In this document: positions 432 through 33,392 of the stretch, piece after piece
How positions within the stretch are numbered: the first letter of the stretch is position 1
How the letters are laid out: each line of letters starts with the position of its first letter
DNA from: a virus
IMG/VR virus record: IMGVR_UViG_3300037851_000431
Location: 1-64,000 of that record
Reading direction: 5' to 3' (one strand)
Length of the DNA: 64,000 bases
The notes under the pieces: generated by a model
Told to the model about the DNA's origin: nothing
Database searches by the model: none
Seen by the model: only the letters and a program-made list of their open reading frames with translations
Program-made: the position numbers and the translations under genes

Positions 432-2143
432 ACATCTTTTCTGTAGACTTAGAGACTACAGGATTGAATCCGCATGACTCGCGGATGCTTTTGGTTCAGA
501 TAGGACTACCTGATGGTAGGGTGTATATATACCCTATACATGATGATAGCAATATTACAGGTTTGGGGCCATTTTTTGGTGATTCTAATATTAAGAAGAT
601 TTTTCAGCGAGGAAAATTCGATCAGGGATTCTTTCTGTATCATAATCGTAAGTTTGAGTTTAACAACCTATTTGATACACATGTTGCAGAAAAGGTTATC
701 AACTCCGACAGTCGCACCAATTCTCTAGAAAATCTTGCTCTTAAATATACAGGAACATCTCTTAATAAAGAGATTAGAAAATCATTCATTAACATGAAGG
801 GAACCGATTTCACACAGGAGCAGTTGGAATATGCGGCCCAAGATGTAAGTATTTTGTTTCCCATCTACGAAGCACAGAAAGAAAAGATTCAAGCTCAGGG
901 AGTTGAGCGCGTAGCTCAACTAGAATTTGATCTTACGACGGTTATTGCAGACATGGAATTAGCAGGTGTACCTATCGATGTTCCAAAATGGAAGAAGATT
1001 TTGGAAGATCATCGGGTTGAACATGAAACAAGTAAATCCAAGATGTTTGAATTACTGTATGATGATAACCCTATAGATGAGCAATTAGGGTTATTCCATC
1101 GTGAACCCATGAATCTTAATAGTCCAAAGCAACTAAAGGAAATCTTTGCCAAGATTGGTATAGATTTGGAGACTACAAATGAGCGCGAAATTGCTATGGT
1201 TAATCATCCGGCAGCTAGAGAGTTACTTGAATACCGTAGGCTCCAAAAGATTCTCTCGTCTTATGGTGAAACCTTTTTGGATCAGATACACCCCTTCACT
1301 GGAAGAATTCACGCAGATTTTGATCAAATTGGGACGGCAACAGGGCGTTTCTCTTGCAGAAATCCAAACCTTCAGCAAATGCCTGACGAATTTAGGCAGT
1401 GCGTATCCCTTTCGGGTTATAAGGTAGTGGTAGCAGATTACTCACAGATCGAGTTAAGAATTCTCGGTGAATTGAGTAAAGATAAAAGGTTTATCGAGGC
1501 ATTTGTAAACGACATTGATCTTCATACCAACACAGCGTCGATTATGTTCAACACACCCCTTGACAAAGTAACTAAGGATCAGCGATTTATCGCTAAAACC
1601 ATCAACTTTGGAATTGCCTACGGAATGGGGCCGAATAAACTTTCTGATATACTTAATGCAGGGAAGCCTGAGAGTCAAAGACTTCCCCTCCATAGAGTCA
1701 AGGCTATTTTTAACAAATATCGGGATACTTATCGAGATGTTATTCGTTGGCTCCAAGAGGCGGGCGATTCAGCATATCGTCAAGGTTATTCAACTACTAT
1801 GATGGGTAGACGAAGGTATTATAATCCCCCAACAGGTGACGACATTGATTTTCAGATAGCGGGTATTAAAAGACAGGGAGCAAACTCGCCCATTCAGGGT
1901 ACGAATGCAGATATTACTAAACTGGCATTGCTAGATGTACGTAAAGTATTACGAGAGTACAATTTTCGTGCTGATATTATACTTCAGGTACATGATGAGA
2001 TTGTTGTTTTAGCCCACAAATCTCAAGCCGAAGCAGTTAAGGAAGTACTGGAAGATTCTATGATTAAATCTGCGGAGAAGATTTTAAAGACTGTCCCTGT
2101 TAAGGTGGATTCGTATATTAATACTATGTGGAGAAAAGGGTGA
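371..2143 (+). CDS. polA: Family A DNA polymerase with 3'-5' exonuclease domain
   Basis: Exo I DLETTG; TATGRFSCRNPNLQQ; motif A DYSQIELR; motif B RFIAKTINFGIAYG; motif C VHDE. Confidence 0.97.
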   Translation: MDTVIVTKDIGEVVSALSGVNIFSVDLETTGLNPHDSRMLLVQIGLPDGRVYIYPIHDDSNITGLGPFFGDSNIKKIFQRGKFDQGFFLYHNRKFEFNNLFDTHVAEKVINSDSRTNSLENLALKYTGTSLNKEIRKSFINMKGTDFTQEQLEYAAQDVSILFPIYEAQKEKIQAQGVERVAQLEFDLTTVIADMELAGVPIDVPKWKKILEDHRVEHETSKSKMFELLYDDNPIDEQLGLFHREPMNLNSPKQLKEIFAKIGIDLETTNEREIAMVNHPAARELLEYRRLQKILSSYGETFLDQIHPFTGRIHADFDQIGTATGRFSCRNPNLQQMPDEFRQCVSLSGYKVVVADYSQIELRILGELSKDKRFIEAFVNDIDLHTNTASIMFNTPLDKVTKDQRFIAKTINFGIAYGMGPNKLSDILNAGKPESQRLPLHRVKAIFNKYRDTYRDVIRWLQEAGDSAYRQGYSTTMMGRRRYYNPPTGDDIDFQIAGIKRQGANSPIQGTNADITKLALLDVRKVLREYNFRADIILQVHDEIVVLAHKSQAEAVKEVLEDSMIKSAEKILKTVPVKVDSYINTMWRKG

Positions 2144-4013: not shown

Positions 4014-4352
4014 ATGGAACCTACTGAAGAAGCAATTGTAGCAATGGAAGCAGCGGTAGATGCTGCTTTAGGACTTCAACCCTATTCTTTTGGCGGAAGA
4101 AAGACGTTTGCTAAGAATATCATCGAGCATTTACCGCCTTCGTTCTGTTTCGGGTCCGAATATCTTGAATTGGAATCAGAGTATGCTCGCCTTCGCAGAA
4201 TCGAGGAAGCACGGGACCAATGTTCCGGTTCGCCCGAACATTACGGTGGTTGTGGCTGTCTGTGCCACGGTGATTATATCATTGAAACTCATTATACAGC
4301 GACGGATGCTTTTCCCGGTATAGAAAAATCAGGGATAAATGAGAATGGTTGA
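4014..4352 (+). CDS. hypothetical protein
   Basis: 112 aa ORF with GAGG RBS. Confidence 0.55.
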   Translation: MEPTEEAIVAMEAAVDAALGLQPYSFGGRKTFAKNIIEHLPPSFCFGSEYLELESEYARLRRIEEARDQCSGSPEHYGGCGCLCHGDYIIETHYTATDAFPGIEKSGINENG

Positions 4353-5520
4353 TGTAGTAGTAGGACTTCAATGGGGAGATGAGGGGAAGGGCAAACTTGT
4401 TGATCTTTTAACCCCACTTTATGATATTGTAGCAAGATTTCAAGGGGGACCAAACGCTGGGCACACCATCTATATAGATGAAAATAAGTATGTACTTCAT
4501 ACAATTCCTAGTGGAATTCTTCATCCCCACACCCAAAATGTAATAGGTAGTGGGGTAGTTATTGATCCTATTTGTCTTCAAAAAGAAGTCGGAGAATTAG
4601 AAGCACTTGGTATTGATGTTAAATCTCGACTTTTTATCTCTAAAAAGGCTCACCTTATTCTTCCTACGCATATTCTGCTTGATAAGGCACACGATAAGGT
4701 AGGAACAACCCATAAAGGGATTGGTCCTGCTTATACTGATAAGATTGCGAGAAATGGGCTTCGGGTTGGGGATATATTAAATAATATTTGGAGAACCCAA
4801 TATCAGGATATGGTTGTTGTTCATGGAAATATCCTAAAGATGGATGAACAAACGACTAAAGAATATACAGAAGCAGAAGATAGGTGGTTTGAGAGCATTG
4901 AATTTCTAAGGGGGTTGCAACTCGTTGATACTGAAGAGTATCTTAATAGTGCCATTATGCAGGATAAAAACATCCTTGCAGAAGGGGCGCAAGGAACGAT
5001 GCTAGATGTTGATTTTGGAAACTACCCTTATGTAACATCATCTAATACTGTTGCTGGTGCAGCTTGTACGGGACTTGGTATTGCGCCCACCAAAATTAAG
5101 AATGTTATCGGTGTTTTTAAAGCTTATGCAACAAGAGTAGGAAATGGTCCATTTCCATCTGAACAGGATAACGAGATTGGGGAACAAATTCGTTCTGTTG
5201 GTAATGAGTATGGATCAACAACAGGCCGACCAAGACGAGTTGGTTGGCTTGATATGCCCGCCCTAAAGTATGCTGTTATGCTTAACGGGGTAACAGAGTT
5301 GGCAATGATGAAAGCCGATGTTTTGAGTGGTTTTGAAACTATTAAGGTGTGTACTGGTTATGATGAACAGTCAACCATGTATACTGAGTTTGAAGGATGG
5401 AATGAAAAAGGTATTTCACCCGCCCTGCAAAATTATATAGATTATATATATAATTATGTGGGTGTAAAGATTACACTTGTATCTGTTGGAAGAGATAGAA
5501 AAGATGTATGTTTTCCATAA
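4339..5520 (+). CDS. purA: Adenylosuccinate synthetase
   Basis: GLQWGDEGKGK, RFQGGPNAGHT, GTTHKGIGPAY, EGAQG, YPYVTSS, TTGRPRRVGWLD. Confidence 0.97.
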   Translation: MRMVDVVVGLQWGDEGKGKLVDLLTPLYDIVARFQGGPNAGHTIYIDENKYVLHTIPSGILHPHTQNVIGSGVVIDPICLQKEVGELEALGIDVKSRLFISKKAHLILPTHILLDKAHDKVGTTHKGIGPAYTDKIARNGLRVGDILNNIWRTQYQDMVVVHGNILKMDEQTTKEYTEAEDRWFESIEFLRGLQLVDTEEYLNSAIMQDKNILAEGAQGTMLDVDFGNYPYVTSSNTVAGAACTGLGIAPTKIKNVIGVFKAYATRVGNGPFPSEQDNEIGEQIRSVGNEYGSTTGRPRRVGWLDMPALKYAVMLNGVTELAMMKADVLSGFETIKVCTGYDEQSTMYTEFEGWNEKGISPALQNYIDYIYNYVGVKITLVSVGRDRKDVCFP

Positions 5521-5553
5521 CGCCTTTTGTTAAAAATTTATTAGAGGAATACA

Positions 5554-6126
5554 ATGATTTCACGGGATGAGTTTTGGACAAAATCAACGGAAATTATGGA
5601 AGTTTATAATTCTAGGACATTTAAAGGATTGAATGAGGAATGGACTGGTTTGGTATTTTTAGGTGATAGTTATTATCGTTGGTTATGGGCAGCAGTAAAG
5701 GTACTTCAACCTAAAATACTTGTTGAAATTGGAAGAGAGCGCGGTGTAAGTGCGTTAATTATGCTTGATGCTATGTCTGAGGATGCTACACTCACTAGTA
5801 TTGATATTATTAAAGAATCTGTGTTTTTAGAGAACAGGGAAGAACCAAGATTAACGCTCATTACTGGAAACAGTTTATCCGTATCAGATCAGGTTTCGAA
5901 TAATATAGACTTTCTATTTATTGACGGTCTACATGAGGGGGATCATGTTACTAAAGAGTGGGAATTATATCGACCTAAATTAGCAGAAAAAGCTGTTGTA
6001 ATATTCGATGATATTCACTTCAATTCTGGAATGTCCAAATTTTGGGAAAATTTACAAGAAGATAAACATGATATTTCTCAGTGGCATCGTAAGGGTTTTG
6101 GGGTAGTATTTATAGGCTATGAGTAG
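5554..6126 (+). CDS. Class I SAM-dependent methyltransferase (Methyltransf_24-like)
   Basis: VEIGRERGVS, IDFLFIDGLH, VIFDDI. Confidence 0.8.
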   Translation: MISRDEFWTKSTEIMEVYNSRTFKGLNEEWTGLVFLGDSYYRWLWAAVKVLQPKILVEIGRERGVSALIMLDAMSEDATLTSIDIIKESVFLENREEPRLTLITGNSLSVSDQVSNNIDFLFIDGLHEGDHVTKEWELYRPKLAEKAVVIFDDIHFNSGMSKFWENLQEDKHDISQWHRKGFGVVFIGYE

Positions 6127-7344: not shown

Positions 7345-8892
7345 ATGGCTAGATTAAATACGAAAAAAATTCCAACTAAGATGGAAGAATTAACTGTTAA
7401 CTATGAAGGTGCTGAAGCATATAAGCTTCCTGTAAAGATGCGCTTAGTTGAGCGTGTTGTAGGAGCCTTTTGGAGCGAGGATTTATTCTACGCTACCGGA
7501 AAGGAAATCAGTGGGGAAATCCTGAAAGATATTCAGGAAGTTGCCAAATCTGATCCTAAATTTATTTTACAGCTTGCCGTGTTTGCACGCAATGAGTTGT
7601 ACCTTCGAACAACTCCACAGGTTTTACTTGTTGAGGCGTCGTATATCGCAGAATGCAAGCCTTTTGTTGAGGAGTACACCTCTAAGATTGTACGCCGAGC
7701 CGACGAGTTAACTGAGGTAGTTGCTTATCATATAAGTCGAATGGGAAGTAAGAAAAACTTCGCTAACTCGCTTAAGAGGGGATTAGCGAATGCTTTTCAG
7801 TCATTCGATGAATATCAGTTGAATAAGTACAAGGGCAATACTTCAAGCGTTTCACTTGGCGATGTTGTGAAGATTGTTCACCCAACTTTCAAGGGTGATG
7901 AAGAGTACCGAAAGGCTCTATACGCATATCTAACCAAGGGGGAGGTATCCCCTGTTCTTACAAAGGTATCGGCACTTAAAACCCTGCTTTCACGCGAATC
8001 TTTTGATGATGAGGCTAAGTCTCTCATTAACCAGTCAGCGGCAACGTGGGAATCTGTTGTATCAAAATTTGGCTCAACCAAGGAAGTTTGGGAAGCCATG
8101 ATACCTAAGATGGGTTATATGGCACTTCTTAGGAACCTTCGAAATTTTGAAGAGAAAAATGTTCAATTAAATTCTGTAATTGAACGGTTAACGAATGAAG
8201 AAGAGGTTAAGCGTTCAAAGCAGCTTCCATTCCGGTTTTATGCCGCCCATCAGGAGGTTAAAACCCCTCAGTTAAAGAAAGCCGTTTCCAAGGCATTTGA
8301 GTTATCTATTAATAATACTGTTTTGGGTGGATCAACTGCTGTACTTGTTGACCTTTCGGGATCAATGTATGGTCACACTGTAAGTAAGGGTTCTAAGATG
8401 CTTTATACAGATGTTGCAGCAGTAATGGGCGCAATAGCTGTAAAGAAATCCGAATATCCTGTAGTTATTGCCTTTGCTAACAGTGCAACAAGGGTAGATG
8501 TTGATCCAGATGATACTATGATGACTACAATGAAGAATATTCTTAATTGTGGTGAGGGTGGAGGAACATATGCGTATAAGGCATTTGAAAATCTGCTACA
8601 GAATAAGCACATTAAGTTTGATCGTGTAGTCATGTTTTCAGATATGCAGTGTTATACTGAGAAAAATTATGATGGAAACGATGTTTCCAAACTTTGGAAA
8701 GAATATGTAAACACAGTTAATAAAGATGCTGTGCTATACTCTTTTGATCTTTCTGGATATGGTACATCCAAGTTTAATTCGAAATCTAAAAATGTTGTTA
8801 CAGTAGCGGGTTGGTCTGATAAGATTCTTGATTTTATCAACCTTCACGAAAAAGACAAGAATTTACTTTTGAACGAAATTGCAAAAATGTGA
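7345..8892 (+). CDS. Ro60/Rsr-like TROVE-domain RNA-binding protein with C-terminal vWA domain
   Basis: MARLN start, NYEGAEAY, FDEYQLNKY, HP, TWES, YMALLRNLRN, SKQLPFRF, MIDAS DLSGSM, FSDMQ. Strong AGGAGGT RBS. Confidence 0.93.
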   Translation: MARLNTKKIPTKMEELTVNYEGAEAYKLPVKMRLVERVVGAFWSEDLFYATGKEISGEILKDIQEVAKSDPKFILQLAVFARNELYLRTTPQVLLVEASYIAECKPFVEEYTSKIVRRADELTEVVAYHISRMGSKKNFANSLKRGLANAFQSFDEYQLNKYKGNTSSVSLGDVVKIVHPTFKGDEEYRKALYAYLTKGEVSPVLTKVSALKTLLSRESFDDEAKSLINQSAATWESVVSKFGSTKEVWEAMIPKMGYMALLRNLRNFEEKNVQLNSVIERLTNEEEVKRSKQLPFRFYAAHQEVKTPQLKKAVSKAFELSINNTVLGGSTAVLVDLSGSMYGHTVSKGSKMLYTDVAAVMGAIAVKKSEYPVVIAFANSATRVDVDPDDTMMTTMKNILNCGEGGGTYAYKAFENLLQNKHIKFDRVVMFSDMQCYTEKNYDGNDVSKLWKEYVNTVNKDAVLYSFDLSGYGTSKFNSKSKNVVTVAGWSDKILDFINLHEKDKNLLLNEIAKM

Positions 8893-8893
8893 C

Positions 8894-8923
8894 TTGAAAT
8901 CGGCACTCTATGAGTGTTATAAT
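8894..8923 (+). promoter_or_regulatory. sigma70-type extended -10 promoter for the ncRNA array
   Basis: TTGAAA-N18-TATAAT with TGn; predicted +1 falls at the 5' end of ncRNA 1. Confidence 0.7.
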
Positions 8924-8924
8924 A

Positions 8925-8996
8925 ATATGGGTAGTGTGAAAGGGGATACTTCGACTTGAAACCGCTAAAACCCCCCTTCGTTTTTCTCTCCCATAT
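8925..8996 (+). ncRNA. Y-RNA-like element 1 (short payload)
   Basis: Terminal stem ATATGGG/CCCATAT, TAGTG, inner purine/pyrimidine stem, TACTTC, pyrimidine tract; directly after Ro60. Confidence 0.7.
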
Positions 8997-9009
8997 AATT
9001 AAAAACTAA

Positions 9010-9142
9010 TTAGGTAGTGCAGTGTAGGATTTCTTCGCTTTGGGAGCCTCTGATGTAGGTGCGATTCCTACTCCCCCGAACAACGGGGGATAGCTTAATA
9101 GTAAAGCAGGGTTTGAAGCCTACGCGCGTTCTTCTCTCCTAA
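9010..9142 (+). ncRNA. Y-RNA-like element 2 carrying a circularly permuted tRNA-Pro(TGG)
   Basis: TTAGG/CCTAA, TAGTG, GTGTAGG/CCTACGC, TTCTTC. Payload order: anticodon loop, T arm, closed acceptor hairpin, D arm. Confidence 0.8.
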
Positions 9143-9145
9143 TGC

Positions 9146-9221
9146 GGCCCTATCGTCTAATGGCTCAGGATAACAGACTTTCAATCTGTTGATCGGGGTT
9201 CGATCCCCCGTGGGGCTACCA
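9146..9221 (+). tRNA. tRNA-Glu(TTC)
   Basis: ACAGA-CTTTCAA-TCTGT, CCA. Confidence 0.93.
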
Positions 9222-9236
9222 ACCATAGATAGAAAT

Positions 9237-9368
9237 TGGGGTAGTGACTACTACAGTTACTTCTATTCACCATACTTATGAATTGTAGTGAAATGGTATC
9301 ACGCTTGGCCTTTAACCAAGAGTTACGGTTCGATTCCGGTAATGTCTGTAGTAAAATTTCTCTCCCCA
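9237..9368 (+). ncRNA. Y-RNA-like element 3 carrying a permuted tRNA-Lys(TTT)-like module
   Basis: TGGGG/CCCCA, TAGTG, TACTACAG/CTGTAGTA, TACTTC. Payload order: acceptor 3' strand plus CCA, acceptor 5' strand, D, anticodon, T. Confidence 0.78.
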
Positions 9369-9391
9369 TCTTCTCTAAAAGAAGGTAATTA

Positions 9392-9607
9392 ATGAAAAAA
9401 TTAGATATATTTTTGATAATAGGTATTATGATACTAATTGCTATAGTTGTAGCATTAGTAGGTGGAATAATATTCACATTTTTATGGAATTTAGTTATTC
9501 CTGTAGCATTTAATGGACCAACACTTTCCCTTATAGAAGGAACAGCTTTAATGCTATTGATTCAATTAGTTTTAGCTCCATTAAGTGTTTCAGTTAAAAC
9601 AAGGTAG
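9392..9607 (+). CDS. small two-helix membrane protein
   Basis: Hydrophobic 71 aa ORF with RBS; its TAG stop is the TAG of element 4's TAGTG. Confidence 0.65.
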   Translation: MKKLDIFLIIGIMILIAIVVALVGGIIFTFLWNLVIPVAFNGPTLSLIEGTALMLLIQLVLAPLSVSVKTR

Positions 9608-9694
9608 TGTAGTTATTGGATACTTCGGTGGGTTTGAACCCACGGGTCTTGGTGGAGACTTTTATACGTTCCAATAACGACTCCCCCTCCTTGT
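9599..9694 (+). ncRNA. Y-RNA-like element 4 (T-arm plus closed acceptor-like minihelix)
   Basis: ACAAGG/CCTTGT, TAGTG, GTTATTGGA/TCCAATAAC, TACTTC; two payload hairpins. Confidence 0.72.
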
Positions 9695-9709
9695 ATTTAT
9701 TAAAGTTAA

Positions 9710-9846
9710 TTAGAGTAGTGTTAGTATCAGTTACTTCGGTAAAGCACAAAACATTGAATTTTGAGATTGTAAGTTCGACTCTTACCCTCCCTACTCAGTT
9801 TGGGAGGAAGCTATAAAAACGCTGATACGCCCGTTACCCTCTCTAA
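9710..9846 (+). ncRNA. Y-RNA-like element 5 carrying a permuted tRNA-Gln(TTG)-like module
   Basis: TTAGAG/CTCTAA, TAGTG, GTATCAG/CTGATAC, TACTTC; payload opened in the D loop. Confidence 0.8.
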
Positions 9847-33313: not shown

Positions 33314-33392
33314 CGGGGTGTAGCTCAGTTTGGTTAGAGCGCCCGCTTTGGGAGCGGGAGGTTCGTAGGTTCGAATCCTATCACCCCGACCA
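33314..33392 (+). tRNA. tRNA-Pro(TGG)
   Basis: CCCGC-TTTGGGA-GCGGG, C1-G72, CCA. Confidence 0.96.

What the first reader, a model, noticed from the sequence alone, without database searches (positions are those of the whole stretch)
9037..9111. Element 2 payload is an essentially complete circularly permuted tRNA-Pro(UGG) opened in the anticodon stem
Joining 9084-9111 to 9037-9079 gives CGGGGGA TA GCTT AATAGTA AAGC A GGG|GC TTTGGGA GCCTC TGAT GTAGG TGCGATT CCTAC TCCCCCG A. All four stems pair, the anticodon loop is identical to the phage's tRNA-Pro at 33314, and the Pro identity elements C1-G72/A73 are present. The acceptor ends are joined by a short ACAA linker, and the T loop has TGC in place of TTC. 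The break after position 29 is where the scaffold attaches. It is either a non-chargeable mimic or a permuted tRNA gene matured by excision and ligation, as known for permuted tRNAs of red algae and some archaea.
Basis: seen in the sequence. Interest (0 to 1): 0.85.

Follow-up and report, generated by a model that had tools for sequence, protein, structure and literature searches.

The report
Phage Y RNA carrying tRNA-Pro mimic
The "inside-out tRNA-Pro" is real, but it is not a tRNA gene: it is the tRNA-shaped part of a small Y RNA beside the phage's Ro60 gene, a known kind of tRNA mimic that here, as in most relatives I examined, also keeps an anticodon arm.

Summary
Observation confirmed. 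Joining 9084-9111 to 9037-9079 gives a 71-nt cloverleaf that ARAGORN calls tRNA-Pro(UGG); none of 2000 shuffles is called, and neither is the native order.

The element (9010-9142) starts 118 nt after a Ro60 (TROVE+vWA) gene and ends 3 nt before tRNA-Glu. Its core hits Rfam YrlA at 30.7 bits, below the family's cut-off of 69. It is a YrlA-type Y RNA, a published class of Ro60-associated tRNA mimics in bacteria and phages (Chen 2014; Wang 2018).

A model built from it finds about 60 phage and 85 bacterial relatives beside Ro60 genes. In most of them a hairpin of 2-3 bp with a 7-nt loop (U33, R37, A38 conserved; triplet free) stacks on 2-3 bp made with the strand after the D arm. Together these form a nicked 5-bp anticodon stem, with many compensatory changes. 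The papers I could read call this hairpin a variable arm, or say YrlA lacks an anticodon loop.

The permuted-gene reading (excision and ligation) is not supported. There is no CCA, the T loop has G55, the scaffold is conserved, and no ligase or splicing endonuclease was found in the record.

In this copy the hairpin has only 2 bp, and energy models prefer a colinear fold.

This scan has found Ro60-linked tRNA-like Y RNAs before on other DNA.

The parts
7345..8892 (+). Ro60 (Rsr-like) gene, 515 aa: the presumed protein partner
   Evidence: Pfam TROVE E=1.6e-40 and vWA_Ro60 E=1.1e-08; more than 1000 homologues
8894..8923 (+). sigma-70-like promoter (TTGAAA, 18 nt, TG-TATAAT) ahead of the array of small RNAs
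   Evidence: 11 of 12 consensus matches; no + strand terminator between 8700 and 10500. A consensus match only.
9010..9142 (+). Whole Element 2, a YrlA-type Y RNA
   Evidence: Model R1 scores 85.7 bits on 9030-9123. Homologues in the same position, followed by tRNA-Glu, occur in L032, L035 and L039.
9010..9014 (+). Terminal stem, 5' strand UUAGG; pairs with 9138-9142 CCUAA
   Evidence: Pair probabilities 0.4-0.93. In the relatives the strands change together: CUAGG/CCUAG, AAUCGG/CCGAUU (read).
9015..9021 (+). Conserved 5' motif (G)GUAGUG-N-AG, likely the Ro60-contact region
   Evidence: A7 G8 U9 G10. A12 G13 are invariant in 8 homologues. The role is inferred; the motif differs from the published GNCGAAN0-1G.
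9022..9033 (+). Scaffold inner helix, 5' strand; pairs with 9115-9125 (7 bp, bulged A9029, then 4 bp)
   Evidence: Pair probabilities 0.61-0.99
9037..9047 (+). Anticodon-arm tip: G30 C31, loop UUUGGGA (UGG, G37), G39 C40
   Evidence: Identical to the phage tRNA-Pro. Same 11-mer in 15 other Y-type RNAs, 12 of them beside Ro60 genes. Family rule of 5 bp plus a 7-nt loop. Weak in energy terms.
9048..9050 (+). Positions 41-43 (CUC); pair with G29-G27 at 9111-9109
   Evidence: Pairs 27:43 and 28:42 are canonical in 130 and 133 of 143 homologues, with 4 or more pair types
9051..9054 (+). 4-nt variable loop UGAU; U48 can form the Levitt pair with A15
   Evidence: 15:48 is G:C in 79 and A:U in 44 of 143 homologues
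9055..9071 (+). T arm GUAGG-UGCGAUU-CCUAC (G55 in place of U55)
   Evidence: T-arm cells 100% paired in A6
9072..9090 (+). Closed acceptor: 7 bp (UCCCCCG/CGGGGGA) with loop AACAA (A73 plus ACAA)
   Evidence: Pair probabilities 0.87-1.0; acceptor cells 97% paired, with changes on both sides in all 7 pairs
9091..9108 (+). U8 A9, D arm GCUU-AAUAGUA-AAGC, A26
   Evidence: D-arm cells 100% paired in A6
9109..9111 (+). G27-G29, 5' strand of the upper anticodon stem; the scaffold leaves after G29
9115..9125 (+). Scaffold inner helix, 3' strand
9126..9142 (+). Pyrimidine-rich 3' tract (UUCUUCUCU) and terminal stem 3' strand CCUAA
   Evidence: An AAUUCUCC-like tract ends every element of the array and its homologues (read)
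9146..9221 (+). tRNA-Glu(UUC), 3 nt downstream. RNase P cutting at its 5' end would make the 3' end of Element 2 (inferred).
   Evidence: ARAGORN and Rfam, 59.6 bits; same neighbour in L032, L035 and L039

Best explanation
Element 2 (9010-9142) is a phage YrlA-type Y RNA. Its two ends pair into a conserved scaffold that presumably docks on the phage Ro60 protein encoded just upstream. Its interior is a full-length mimic of tRNA-Pro(UGG), wired inside-out: the acceptor stem is closed by a 5-nt loop, and the scaffold enters through a nick in the 5' strand of the anticodon stem, after position 29. It is probably co-transcribed with four sister elements and with tRNA-Glu, Asn and Gln from the promoter at 8894-8923. 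Its ends would then be trimmed by the tRNA-processing enzymes that cut the neighbouring tRNAs. The tRNA-shaped module probably works as a non-chargeable handle or decoy for host tRNA-recognising proteins. Candidates are modification enzymes, RNase P, and an anticodon-specific nuclease or another factor that reads a Pro-type loop. This would tether or titrate them at a Ro60 particle, which in bacteria works with exonucleases such as PNPase. Shown here: the sequence, the fold pattern, the position beside Ro60, and family-wide covariation. Inferred: transcription, processing, Ro60 binding and the effector. It most likely arose from tRNA-Pro gene copies in tandem, the published dimeric-tRNA origin model.
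For: A Ro60 gene ends 118 nt upstream on the same strand. Rfam YrlA matches 9047-9115 over model positions 23-89, the T arm - closed acceptor - D arm core, at 30.7 bits and E=3e-4. The re-joined sequence is called tRNA-Pro; 0 of 2000 shuffles are. Model R1 finds 62 hits at E<=1e-4 in phage Ro60 loci, 60 of them on the Ro60 strand, and 87 hits in bacterial Ro60 loci, all on the Ro60 strand. It finds only this one hit in the whole 105.7-kb record. T, acceptor and D helices covary: 94.3% of cells paired and covariation score 0.664, against 0.193 for shuffles and 0.05-0.11 for slid controls. The composite anticodon arm (5 bp, 7-nt loop) is fully met in 43 of 58 phage hits and 73 of 85 bacterial hits, against 5.8% of shuffles and 14-21 hits for other loop lengths. 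With the nick fixed after position 28 for all 143 hits, the five pairs are canonical in 79-93%, against 40-53% when partners are shuffled. The loops keep U33, R37 and A38 while positions 34-36 vary freely. 46 of 58 re-joined phage homologues are called tRNAs. The Levitt pair covaries, and the window has A15:U48. Published work shows that YrlA is a tRNA mimic bound by Ro60, is modified by TruB and DusA, and occurs in 254 bacteria and 22 phages (PMC4201824). A crystal structure shows the L shape (bioRxiv 10.1101/312249). A role as competitive inhibitor of an anticodon nuclease has been proposed (PMC7790460).
Against: The Rfam score is far below the YrlA gathering score (30.7 against 69). The published Ro60 motif GNCGAAN0-1G is not present literally; the element has GGUAGUGCAG instead. 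In this copy the anticodon hairpin has only 2 bp. The proposed fold is -33.7 kcal/mol against an MFE of -43.0, and the MFE uses a colinear helix. The two nearest homologues I could fetch (L032, L039) fit a colinear stem better. G55 and a D loop with a single G depart from the conserved elbow. No expression, binding or processing data exist for this virus. The effector is unknown even for the studied YrlA RNAs.
Confidence: 0.85

Rival explanations
1. It is the same Y RNA, but in this copy the anticodon hairpin does not form. The stem below the D arm runs on colinearly into the scaffold, as in Salmonella YrlA. UUUGGGA is then only a single-stranded relic or internal loop left from a tRNA-Pro ancestor.
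For: ViennaRNA's MFE pairs 9044-9052 with 9107-9114 and gives the GC/GC hairpin a probability of about 0.1. L032 (GCCGC/GCGGC) and L039 fit colinear stems of 4-5 bp. The Rfam YrlA consensus has no hairpin at this place. Wang 2018 states that Salmonella YrlA lacks an anticodon loop.
Against: The 11-mer GC-UUUGGGA-GC is identical to the phage's tRNA-Pro. It recurs in L052 and L055, where no colinear alternative exists. The family-wide rule of 5 bp plus a 7-nt loop holds in 116 of 143 hits. Nearest-neighbour models often mis-fold real tRNAs and ignore coaxial stacking.
Confidence: 0.22
2. The closed acceptor is opened after transcription. RNase P cuts before C9084, the 3' side is trimmed to A9079, and CCA is added, as shown for Mycobacterium smegmatis YrlA. 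The result is a two-piece, possibly prolyl-chargeable tRNA mimic still held together on the scaffold.
For: The acceptor stem has 7 bp and stacks on a 5-bp T stem, the feature that Chen 2014 link to RNase P cleavage of M. smegmatis YrlA. C1-G72, A73, G35, G36 and G37 are all present; these match bacterial tRNA-Pro identity elements as I recall them. The loop AACAA resembles a decayed A-CCA. Homologues keep N73-CCA in the loop: L037 ACCAAAUCGA, L094 ACCA, L065 ACCAUGC, L043 AACCAUA.
Against: Most Pro-type homologues close the acceptor with GNRA-like or UUCG tetraloops and lack C1-G72/A73, so charging is not a conserved property. The record has no CCA-adding enzyme, although the host would have one. 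G55 and the odd D loop may weaken recognition. Chen 2014 saw no such cleavage for Salmonella YrlA or Deinococcus Yrn1.
Confidence: 0.12
3. It is a true permuted tRNA-Pro gene. The transcript is cut out of the scaffold, joined 9111 to 9037, and opened at the acceptor to give a working tRNA, as in red algae and some archaea.
For: The re-joined sequence scores as a tRNA. The 3' half lies upstream of the 5' half.
Against: No CCA is present, while all 24 window tRNAs encode it, including a normal tRNA-Pro(UGG). The T loop has G55. The flanks form a conserved scaffold shared with other payloads, not a bulge-helix-bulge. No splicing endonuclease, RtcB, Rnl1 or Rnl2 was found. The element is tied to Ro60 genes across phages and bacteria. 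Many homologues have tetraloop-closed acceptors.
Confidence: 0.02
4. It is chance resemblance or a dead fragment of rearranged tRNA genes with no function.
For: The region is crowded with tRNA genes, and phage tRNA clusters do rearrange.
Against: 0 of 2000 shuffles are called tRNA. Homologues are conserved and covarying in many phages and bacteria, always beside Ro60. Synteny with tRNA-Glu is kept in relatives whose Ro60 is only 52-54% identical.
Confidence: 0.01

Closest known systems
YrlA (Y RNA-like A; Rfam RF02553), the Ro60/Rsr-bound tRNA-mimic Y RNAs of bacteria and phages (Chen et al. 2014, PMC4201824; Wang et al. 2018, bioRxiv 10.1101/312249)
   Same: It is encoded within 4 kb of a Ro60 gene on the same strand. 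The order is scaffold 5' strand, T arm, loop-closed acceptor-like stem, D arm, scaffold 3' strand. U8, A14, the Levitt 15:48 pair, C56 and A58 are kept. Several Y RNAs sit in one locus, co-located with tRNA genes.
   Different: It scores 30.7 bits against the family cut-off of 69. The 5' motif is GGUAGUG-N-AG, not GNCGAAN0-1G. It has UUUC where most relatives have the conserved UUAC (the published YUAY). It has G55 and a one-G D loop. It carries an anticodon-type hairpin that completes a 5-bp stem. The papers I could read describe a 'V' (variable) stem-loop or state that YrlA lacks an anticodon loop.
Mycobacterium smegmatis YrlA (Chen et al. 2014)
   Same: [quoted passage not shown]
   Different: Cleavage by RNase P and CCA addition were shown for the M. 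smegmatis RNA. Nothing is known for this RNA, and its loop reads A-ACA-A.
Permuted tRNA genes of Cyanidioschyzon merolae and split or permuted archaeal tRNAs (from my own knowledge; not read here)
   Same: The 3' half is encoded upstream of the 5' half, and the acceptor ends are joined by a short linker.
   Different: Those genes are matured through a bulge-helix-bulge cut and ligation into working, CCA-ended tRNAs. Here there is no such motif, no such enzymes and no CCA, and the flanks are a conserved protein-docking scaffold.
Thermus phage phiLo Ro60 with Yrl1 and Yrl2 (PMC12135203)
   Same: A phage-encoded Ro60 has adjacent Y-RNA-like genes. In that system binding and complex formation with host PNPase were shown in vitro.
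   Different: Those RNAs were found through a CGAA motif, lie upstream of the gene, and are not described as tRNA-like in the passages I read.

Membership tests
YrlA-type Y RNA | Encoded within about 4 kb of a Ro60/TROVE gene on the same strand | tested here: met
   Ro60 ORF 7345-8892 (+); the element starts at 9010 (+)
YrlA-type Y RNA | Central domain ordered T arm, loop-closed acceptor-like stem, D arm, enclosed by a stem | tested here: met
   Rfam YrlA alignment over model positions 23-89; R1 85.7 bits; covariation of these helices in homologues
YrlA-type Y RNA | Reaches the Rfam RF02553 gathering score (69 bits) | tested here: not met
   30.7 bits, E=3e-4 in a 1.6-kb search; no hit at gathering threshold. 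This is a curators' threshold, not a biological feature.
YrlA-type Y RNA | GNCGAAN0-1G motif near the 5' end (proposed Ro60 contact) | tested here: not met
   The 5' region reads GGUAGUGCAG. Relatives have AGUG(A/C/U)AG, at best a divergent form (UGAAG against CGAAG).
YrlA-type Y RNA | tRNA tertiary-contact nucleotides: U8, A14, 15:48 Levitt pair, G18 G19, U54 U55 C56, A58 | tested here: inconclusive
   U8, A14, A15:U48, U54, C56 and A58 are present. Position 55 is G, and the D loop AAUAGUA has one G.
YrlA-type Y RNA | Bound by Ro60/Rsr in vivo | not testable with these tools
   Needs co-immunoprecipitation or a gel-shift assay
Permuted tRNA gene (matured to a working tRNA) | 3' half upstream of 5' half, re-joinable into a cloverleaf | tested here: met
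   ARAGORN calls tRNA-Pro(tgg) on the re-joined sequence
Permuted tRNA gene (matured to a working tRNA) | Processing signals and enzymes for excision and ligation (bulge-helix-bulge, splicing endonuclease, RNA ligase) | tested here: not met
   The junction is an 11-bp scaffold helix plus a terminal stem. No PF01974, RtcB, Rnl2 or Rnl1 was found in the record. The Rnl1 control rang nowhere, and the record is 88% complete.
Permuted tRNA gene (matured to a working tRNA) | Features of a usable tRNA: 3' CCA as in the genome's other tRNAs, and a canonical T loop | tested here: not met
   A73 is followed by ACA. All 24 window tRNAs encode CCA. The T loop is UGCGAUU.
Canonical tRNA gene | Colinear cloverleaf detected by tRNA finders | tested here: not met
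   Not called by ARAGORN or the Rfam tRNA model in native order

The most novel reading that the evidence does not exclude
The stem-loop upstream of the T arm, published as the 'V' (variable) arm of YrlA RNAs, is in fact the distal half of a nicked anticodon arm. If so, most YrlA-type Y RNAs of phages and bacteria are complete, isoacceptor-specific tRNA mimics (Pro-UGG, Asn-GUU, Lys-UUU, Arg-UCU and others). Ro60 loci would then carry sets of them as anticodon-specific decoys or handles, for example against anticodon nucleases or for anticodon-reading enzymes. Element 2 would be the Pro-UGG member. The motif ACUUC may descend from the anticodon stem of an ancestral tRNA-Pro.
Probability: 0.3. 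Interest if true: 0.7.

Novelty: new member of a known kind. Interest (0 to 1): 0.4.

Why it matters
The element itself adds a divergent phage member to a known RNA class that Rfam's model misses at its own threshold.

The wider point concerns what the tRNA-like module of Y RNAs binds, which is still unknown. Across about 140 Ro60-linked homologues the module keeps a 5-bp stem and a 7-nt anticodon-type loop. The framing nucleotides of that loop are conserved and the triplet varies freely. This suggests that the partner reads the anticodon end as well as the elbow.

That narrows the candidates to anticodon nucleases, anticodon-loop modification enzymes and synthetases. It also makes the published decoy idea testable with defined loop swaps in laboratory phage-host pairs.

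Tried and rejected
1. A search for close relatives of the Ro60 protein in IMG/VR by exact peptides found none. The single metagenome scan returned only three distant loci. The nearest loci I could study therefore have Ro60 only 52-54% identical.

2. An exact search with the T arm GTAGGTGCGATTCCTAC returned 29 viral stretches. All were unrelated tRNA-like or other sequences, not relatives.

3. Single-sequence folding does not recover the cloverleaf. The z-score is -1.1, and the proposed fold lies 9.3 kcal/mol above the MFE. I do not count folding as support.

4. My first greedy search for hairpins over-fitted by shifting the variable-loop length. I replaced it with a fixed-geometry test with shuffles and other loop and stem lengths, and then with a test with the nick fixed.

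5. MAFFT alignments of the hairpin region put gaps in inconsistent places. I therefore counted covariation of the anticodon stem on structure-anchored positions in a script rather than with the count of structure pairs.

6. I tested whether Pro-type homologues keep the acceptor identity of tRNA-Pro. Most do not, which argues against charging as the conserved function.

7. The reviews by Sim and Wolin (2018) and Sim et al. (2020), and Burroughs and Aravind (2016), were not held. I cannot exclude that the anticodon-arm reading is already in print there.

Full report
**1. What is there**

The window is the first 64 kb of a 105.7-kb IMG/VR virus record, 88% complete by CheckV. It holds 24 tRNA genes.

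In order, 9037-9111 contains:
- G30 C31
- the loop UUUGGGA
- G39-C43
- a 4-nt variable loop
- a T arm, GUAGG-UGCGAUU-CCUAC
- the 3' acceptor strand UCCCCCG
- A73
- the linker ACAA
- the 5' acceptor strand CGGGGGA
- U8 A9
- a D arm, GCUU-AAUAGUA-AAGC
- A26
- G27-G29

When 9084-9111 is put in front of 9037-9079, ARAGORN calls the 71-mer tRNA-Pro(tgg). It calls none of 2000 dinucleotide shuffles, and it does not call the native order.

Among the window's 24 tRNAs the closest is the tRNA-Pro at 33314. The two share C1-G72, A73, the T stem GUAGG, and the eleven bases GC-UUUGGGA-GC.

**2. Context**

The ORF at 7345-8892 (+), which ends 118 nt upstream, is a Ro60 orthologue: TROVE E=1.6e-40 and the Ro60 vWA domain.

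A strong sigma-70-like promoter follows its stop codon at 8894-8923. No + strand terminator is predicted up to 10500.

Element 2 (9010-9142) ends 3 nt before tRNA-Glu (9146).

Its ends pair in three steps: a terminal stem (9010-9014 with 9138-9142), an inner helix (9022-9028 with 9119-9125), and a further helix (9030-9033 with 9115-9118). All have high predicted pair probabilities.

With relaxed thresholds the Rfam YrlA model matches 9047-9115 over its T arm - closed acceptor - D arm core. The score is 30.7 bits, E=3e-4, against a gathering score of 69.

**3. What is known**

Chen et al. 2014 (PMC4201824) described YrlA RNAs. They are bound by Ro60/Rsr and encoded within 4 kb of its gene on the same strand in 254 bacteria and 22 phages. 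Their central domain mimics tRNA: T arm, acceptor-like stem-loop, D arm. The domain is modified by TruB and DusA. In M. smegmatis, where the acceptor has 7 bp, it is cut by RNase P and given CCA.

Wang et al. 2018 solved the Salmonella domain. [quoted passage not shown] They cite a model in which these RNAs arose from dimeric tRNA transcripts.

**4. Relatives**

Relatives with Ro60 52-54% identical, in phages of 65-120 kb, carry a homologous element downstream of Ro60. In L032, L035 and L039 it is again followed by tRNA-Glu.

I built a covariance model of the core, R1. Its results:
- 62 hits at E<=1e-4 in 80 phage Ro60 loci, 60 of them on the Ro60 strand.
- 87 hits, all on the Ro60 strand, in 80 bacterial Ro60 loci: Lentzea, Streptomyces, Microbispora, Sphingobacterium, Myxococcales and others.
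- One hit only, Element 2, in the whole virus record.

On the bacterial alignment the T, acceptor and D helices are 97-100% paired. The covariation score is 0.664, against 0.193 for shuffles and 0.05-0.11 for slid partners.

The 15:48 Levitt pair covaries: G:C in 79 hits and A:U in 44. The window has A15:U48.

**5. The anticodon arm**

Nearly all hits begin with the conserved (G)GUUACUUC. This contains the published conserved tetramer YUAY.

After it come, in order:
- a hairpin of 2-4 bp with a 7-nt loop
- 2-3 nt that pair with the 2-3 nt directly after the D arm
- a 4-5 nt variable loop, typically A/UGGUC
- the T arm

.

I tested a fixed geometry: a 5-bp stem made of k pairs with the post-D strand plus 5-k local pairs, a 7-nt loop, and a variable loop of 4 or 5 nt.
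- All five pairs are canonical in 43 of 58 phage hits, against 5.8% of shuffles. With loops of 4-10 nt other than 7, the count is 15-19. With stems of 6 or 7 bp it is 10 or 6.
- All five pairs are canonical in 73 of 85 bacterial hits, against 14-21 for other loop lengths. k = 2 in 59 of the 73.
- With k fixed at 2 for all 143 hits, pairs 27:43 to 31:39 are canonical in 79-93%, against 40-53% when partners are shuffled, with four or more pair types each. The two bases 5' of the hairpin could pair with 27 and 28 in only 20-29%.
- Over the unique loops, U33 is present in 21 of 24 phage and 36 of 40 bacterial loops, a purine at 37 in 22/24 and 37/40, and A38 in 21/24 and 35/40. Positions 34-36 use all four bases.
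- 46 of 58 re-joined phage homologues are called tRNAs, with many different anticodons.

So the complete cloverleaf, opened in the 5' strand of the anticodon stem, is the general design of these RNAs.

The papers I could read label this hairpin 'V' (variable arm). The Rfam consensus has no hairpin at this place. The two readings differ in which helices stack. The fixed sum of 5 bp, the 7-nt loop and the U33/R37 pattern favour the anticodon-arm reading. I could not read the 2018 and 2020 reviews, so it may already be in print.

**6. Caveats for this copy**

- Here k = 3 and the local hairpin has only 2 bp (GC/GC).
- ViennaRNA puts the proposed fold at -33.7 kcal/mol against an MFE of -43.0. The MFE extends the stem colinearly, pairing 9044-9048 with 9110-9114.
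- L032 and L039 fit colinear stems better.
- The scaffold has UUUC where most relatives have UUAC.
- The 5' motif GGUAGUG-N-AG is not the published GNCGAAN0-1G.
- The T loop has G55, and the D loop has a single G. The only other homologue with a UGC T loop and no GG in its D loop is L043:2412.

**7. Pro-type subfamily and origin**

The exact 15-mer CUUCGCUUUGGGAGC occurs in 62 IMG/VR stretches.
- Fifteen of these continue as T arm, closed acceptor and D arm. Twelve of the fifteen have a Ro60 gene 150-400 nt away on the same strand.
- None of the 42 other distinct stretches has a Ro60 gene nearby.

Most Pro-type members close the acceptor with GNRA-like tetraloops and lack C1-G72/A73. L055 and L032 share the window's G-A-ACA.

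Several homologues of other types keep N73-CCA in the loop. This fits descent from the 3' part of one tRNA gene plus the 5' part of the next.

Real phage tRNA-Pro genes (L207, L213, L250) share the 23 bases CUUCGCUUUGGGAGCGAGAGGUC with the Y RNA in L233. This is a lead that the conserved ACUUC descends from a tRNA-Pro anticodon stem. I did not test it further.

**8. Mechanism**

Most likely (0.85 for identity) this is a non-chargeable tRNA-Pro mimic on a Ro60-docking scaffold. It would be made from a polycistronic transcript together with tRNAs.

Its function is inferred from the family. It could tether Ro60, and through it an exonuclease such as PNPase, to a tRNA-recognising protein. PNPase tethering is shown for Deinococcus (Chen 2014), and complex formation in vitro for a Thermus phage (PMC12135203). 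Alternatively it could act as a decoy. Hughes et al. 2020 (PMC7790460) proposed that the YrlA domain competitively inhibits an anticodon nuclease.

The conserved anticodon-type loop fits a partner that reads that end.

A minor possibility (0.12) is opening by RNase P with CCA addition, as in M. smegmatis.

**9. The permuted-gene reading**

I put a true permuted tRNA gene at about 0.02, for these reasons:
- No CCA follows A73, while all 24 window tRNAs encode it.
- A normal tRNA-Pro(UGG) is already present.
- The flanks are conserved.
- Many homologues have tetraloop-closed acceptors.
- No RtcB, Rnl2, Rnl1, CCA-adding enzyme or splicing endonuclease was found. The Rnl1 control was uninformative, and the record is 88% complete.

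**10. Verdict**

This is a real feature and a new, divergent phage member of the known YrlA class.

Earlier notes of this scan describe the same array (e1-5978226) and a sister element (e1-5978229). They also record Ro60-linked tRNA-like Y RNAs on other DNA, for example e1-272486.

Noticed in passing
window 8925-9846: Element 2 is one of five small elements after the Ro60 gene. They share the ends GGUAGUG ... (A)AUUCUCC and a terminal stem, and are interleaved with tRNA-Glu, Asn and Gln. Element 3 (9237-9368) reads as a Lys(UUU)-like tRNA wired differently: acceptor 3' strand plus CCA first, T arm last. It scores 35 bits on the Rfam tRNA model (9280-9347).
   Followed up: partly
window 9392-9607: A 71-aa hydrophobic ORF sits inside the RNA array. 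A similar small membrane ORF sits at the matching place in L032 and L035 (about 5411-5650).
   Followed up: no
window 4339-5520: The phage encodes an adenylosuccinate synthetase homologue (Pfam PF00709, E=3.6e-148, 393 aa). Phage copies of this enzyme can be PurZ, which makes 2-aminoadenine genomes. I did not examine it.
   Followed up: no
L043 2260-2798; L056 2074-2822; L121, L123, L127 (Myxococcales): Many Ro60 loci carry three to five permuted tRNA mimics in a row, each with a different anticodon-type triplet.
   Followed up: partly
window 9060-9066 and 9097-9103; L043 2412-2508; L005, L017: The unusual T loop UGCGA/UGCAA (G55) goes with a D loop that has AGUA in place of GG. This holds in two Y RNAs and in some ordinary phage tRNAs found with the T-arm pattern, and hints at a compensated elbow contact (18:55).
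   Followed up: partly
L233 about 1165-1260 (- strand); L207, L213, L250: A Y RNA and real phage tRNA-Pro genes share the 23 bases CUUCGCUUUGGGAGCGAGAGGUC: anticodon stem, loop and variable loop. The conserved Y-RNA motif ACUUC overlaps what is the 5' strand of the anticodon stem in the tRNA.
   Followed up: partly
L196, L199: Two viral stretches carry the same Pro-type permuted tRNA-like core but a different upstream motif (AAUAUUCUUC). No Ro60 gene is present in the fetched DNA. They may belong to a Ro60-independent family.
   Followed up: no
window, all 24 tRNA genes: Every tRNA gene of the window encodes its 3' CCA.
   Followed up: yes
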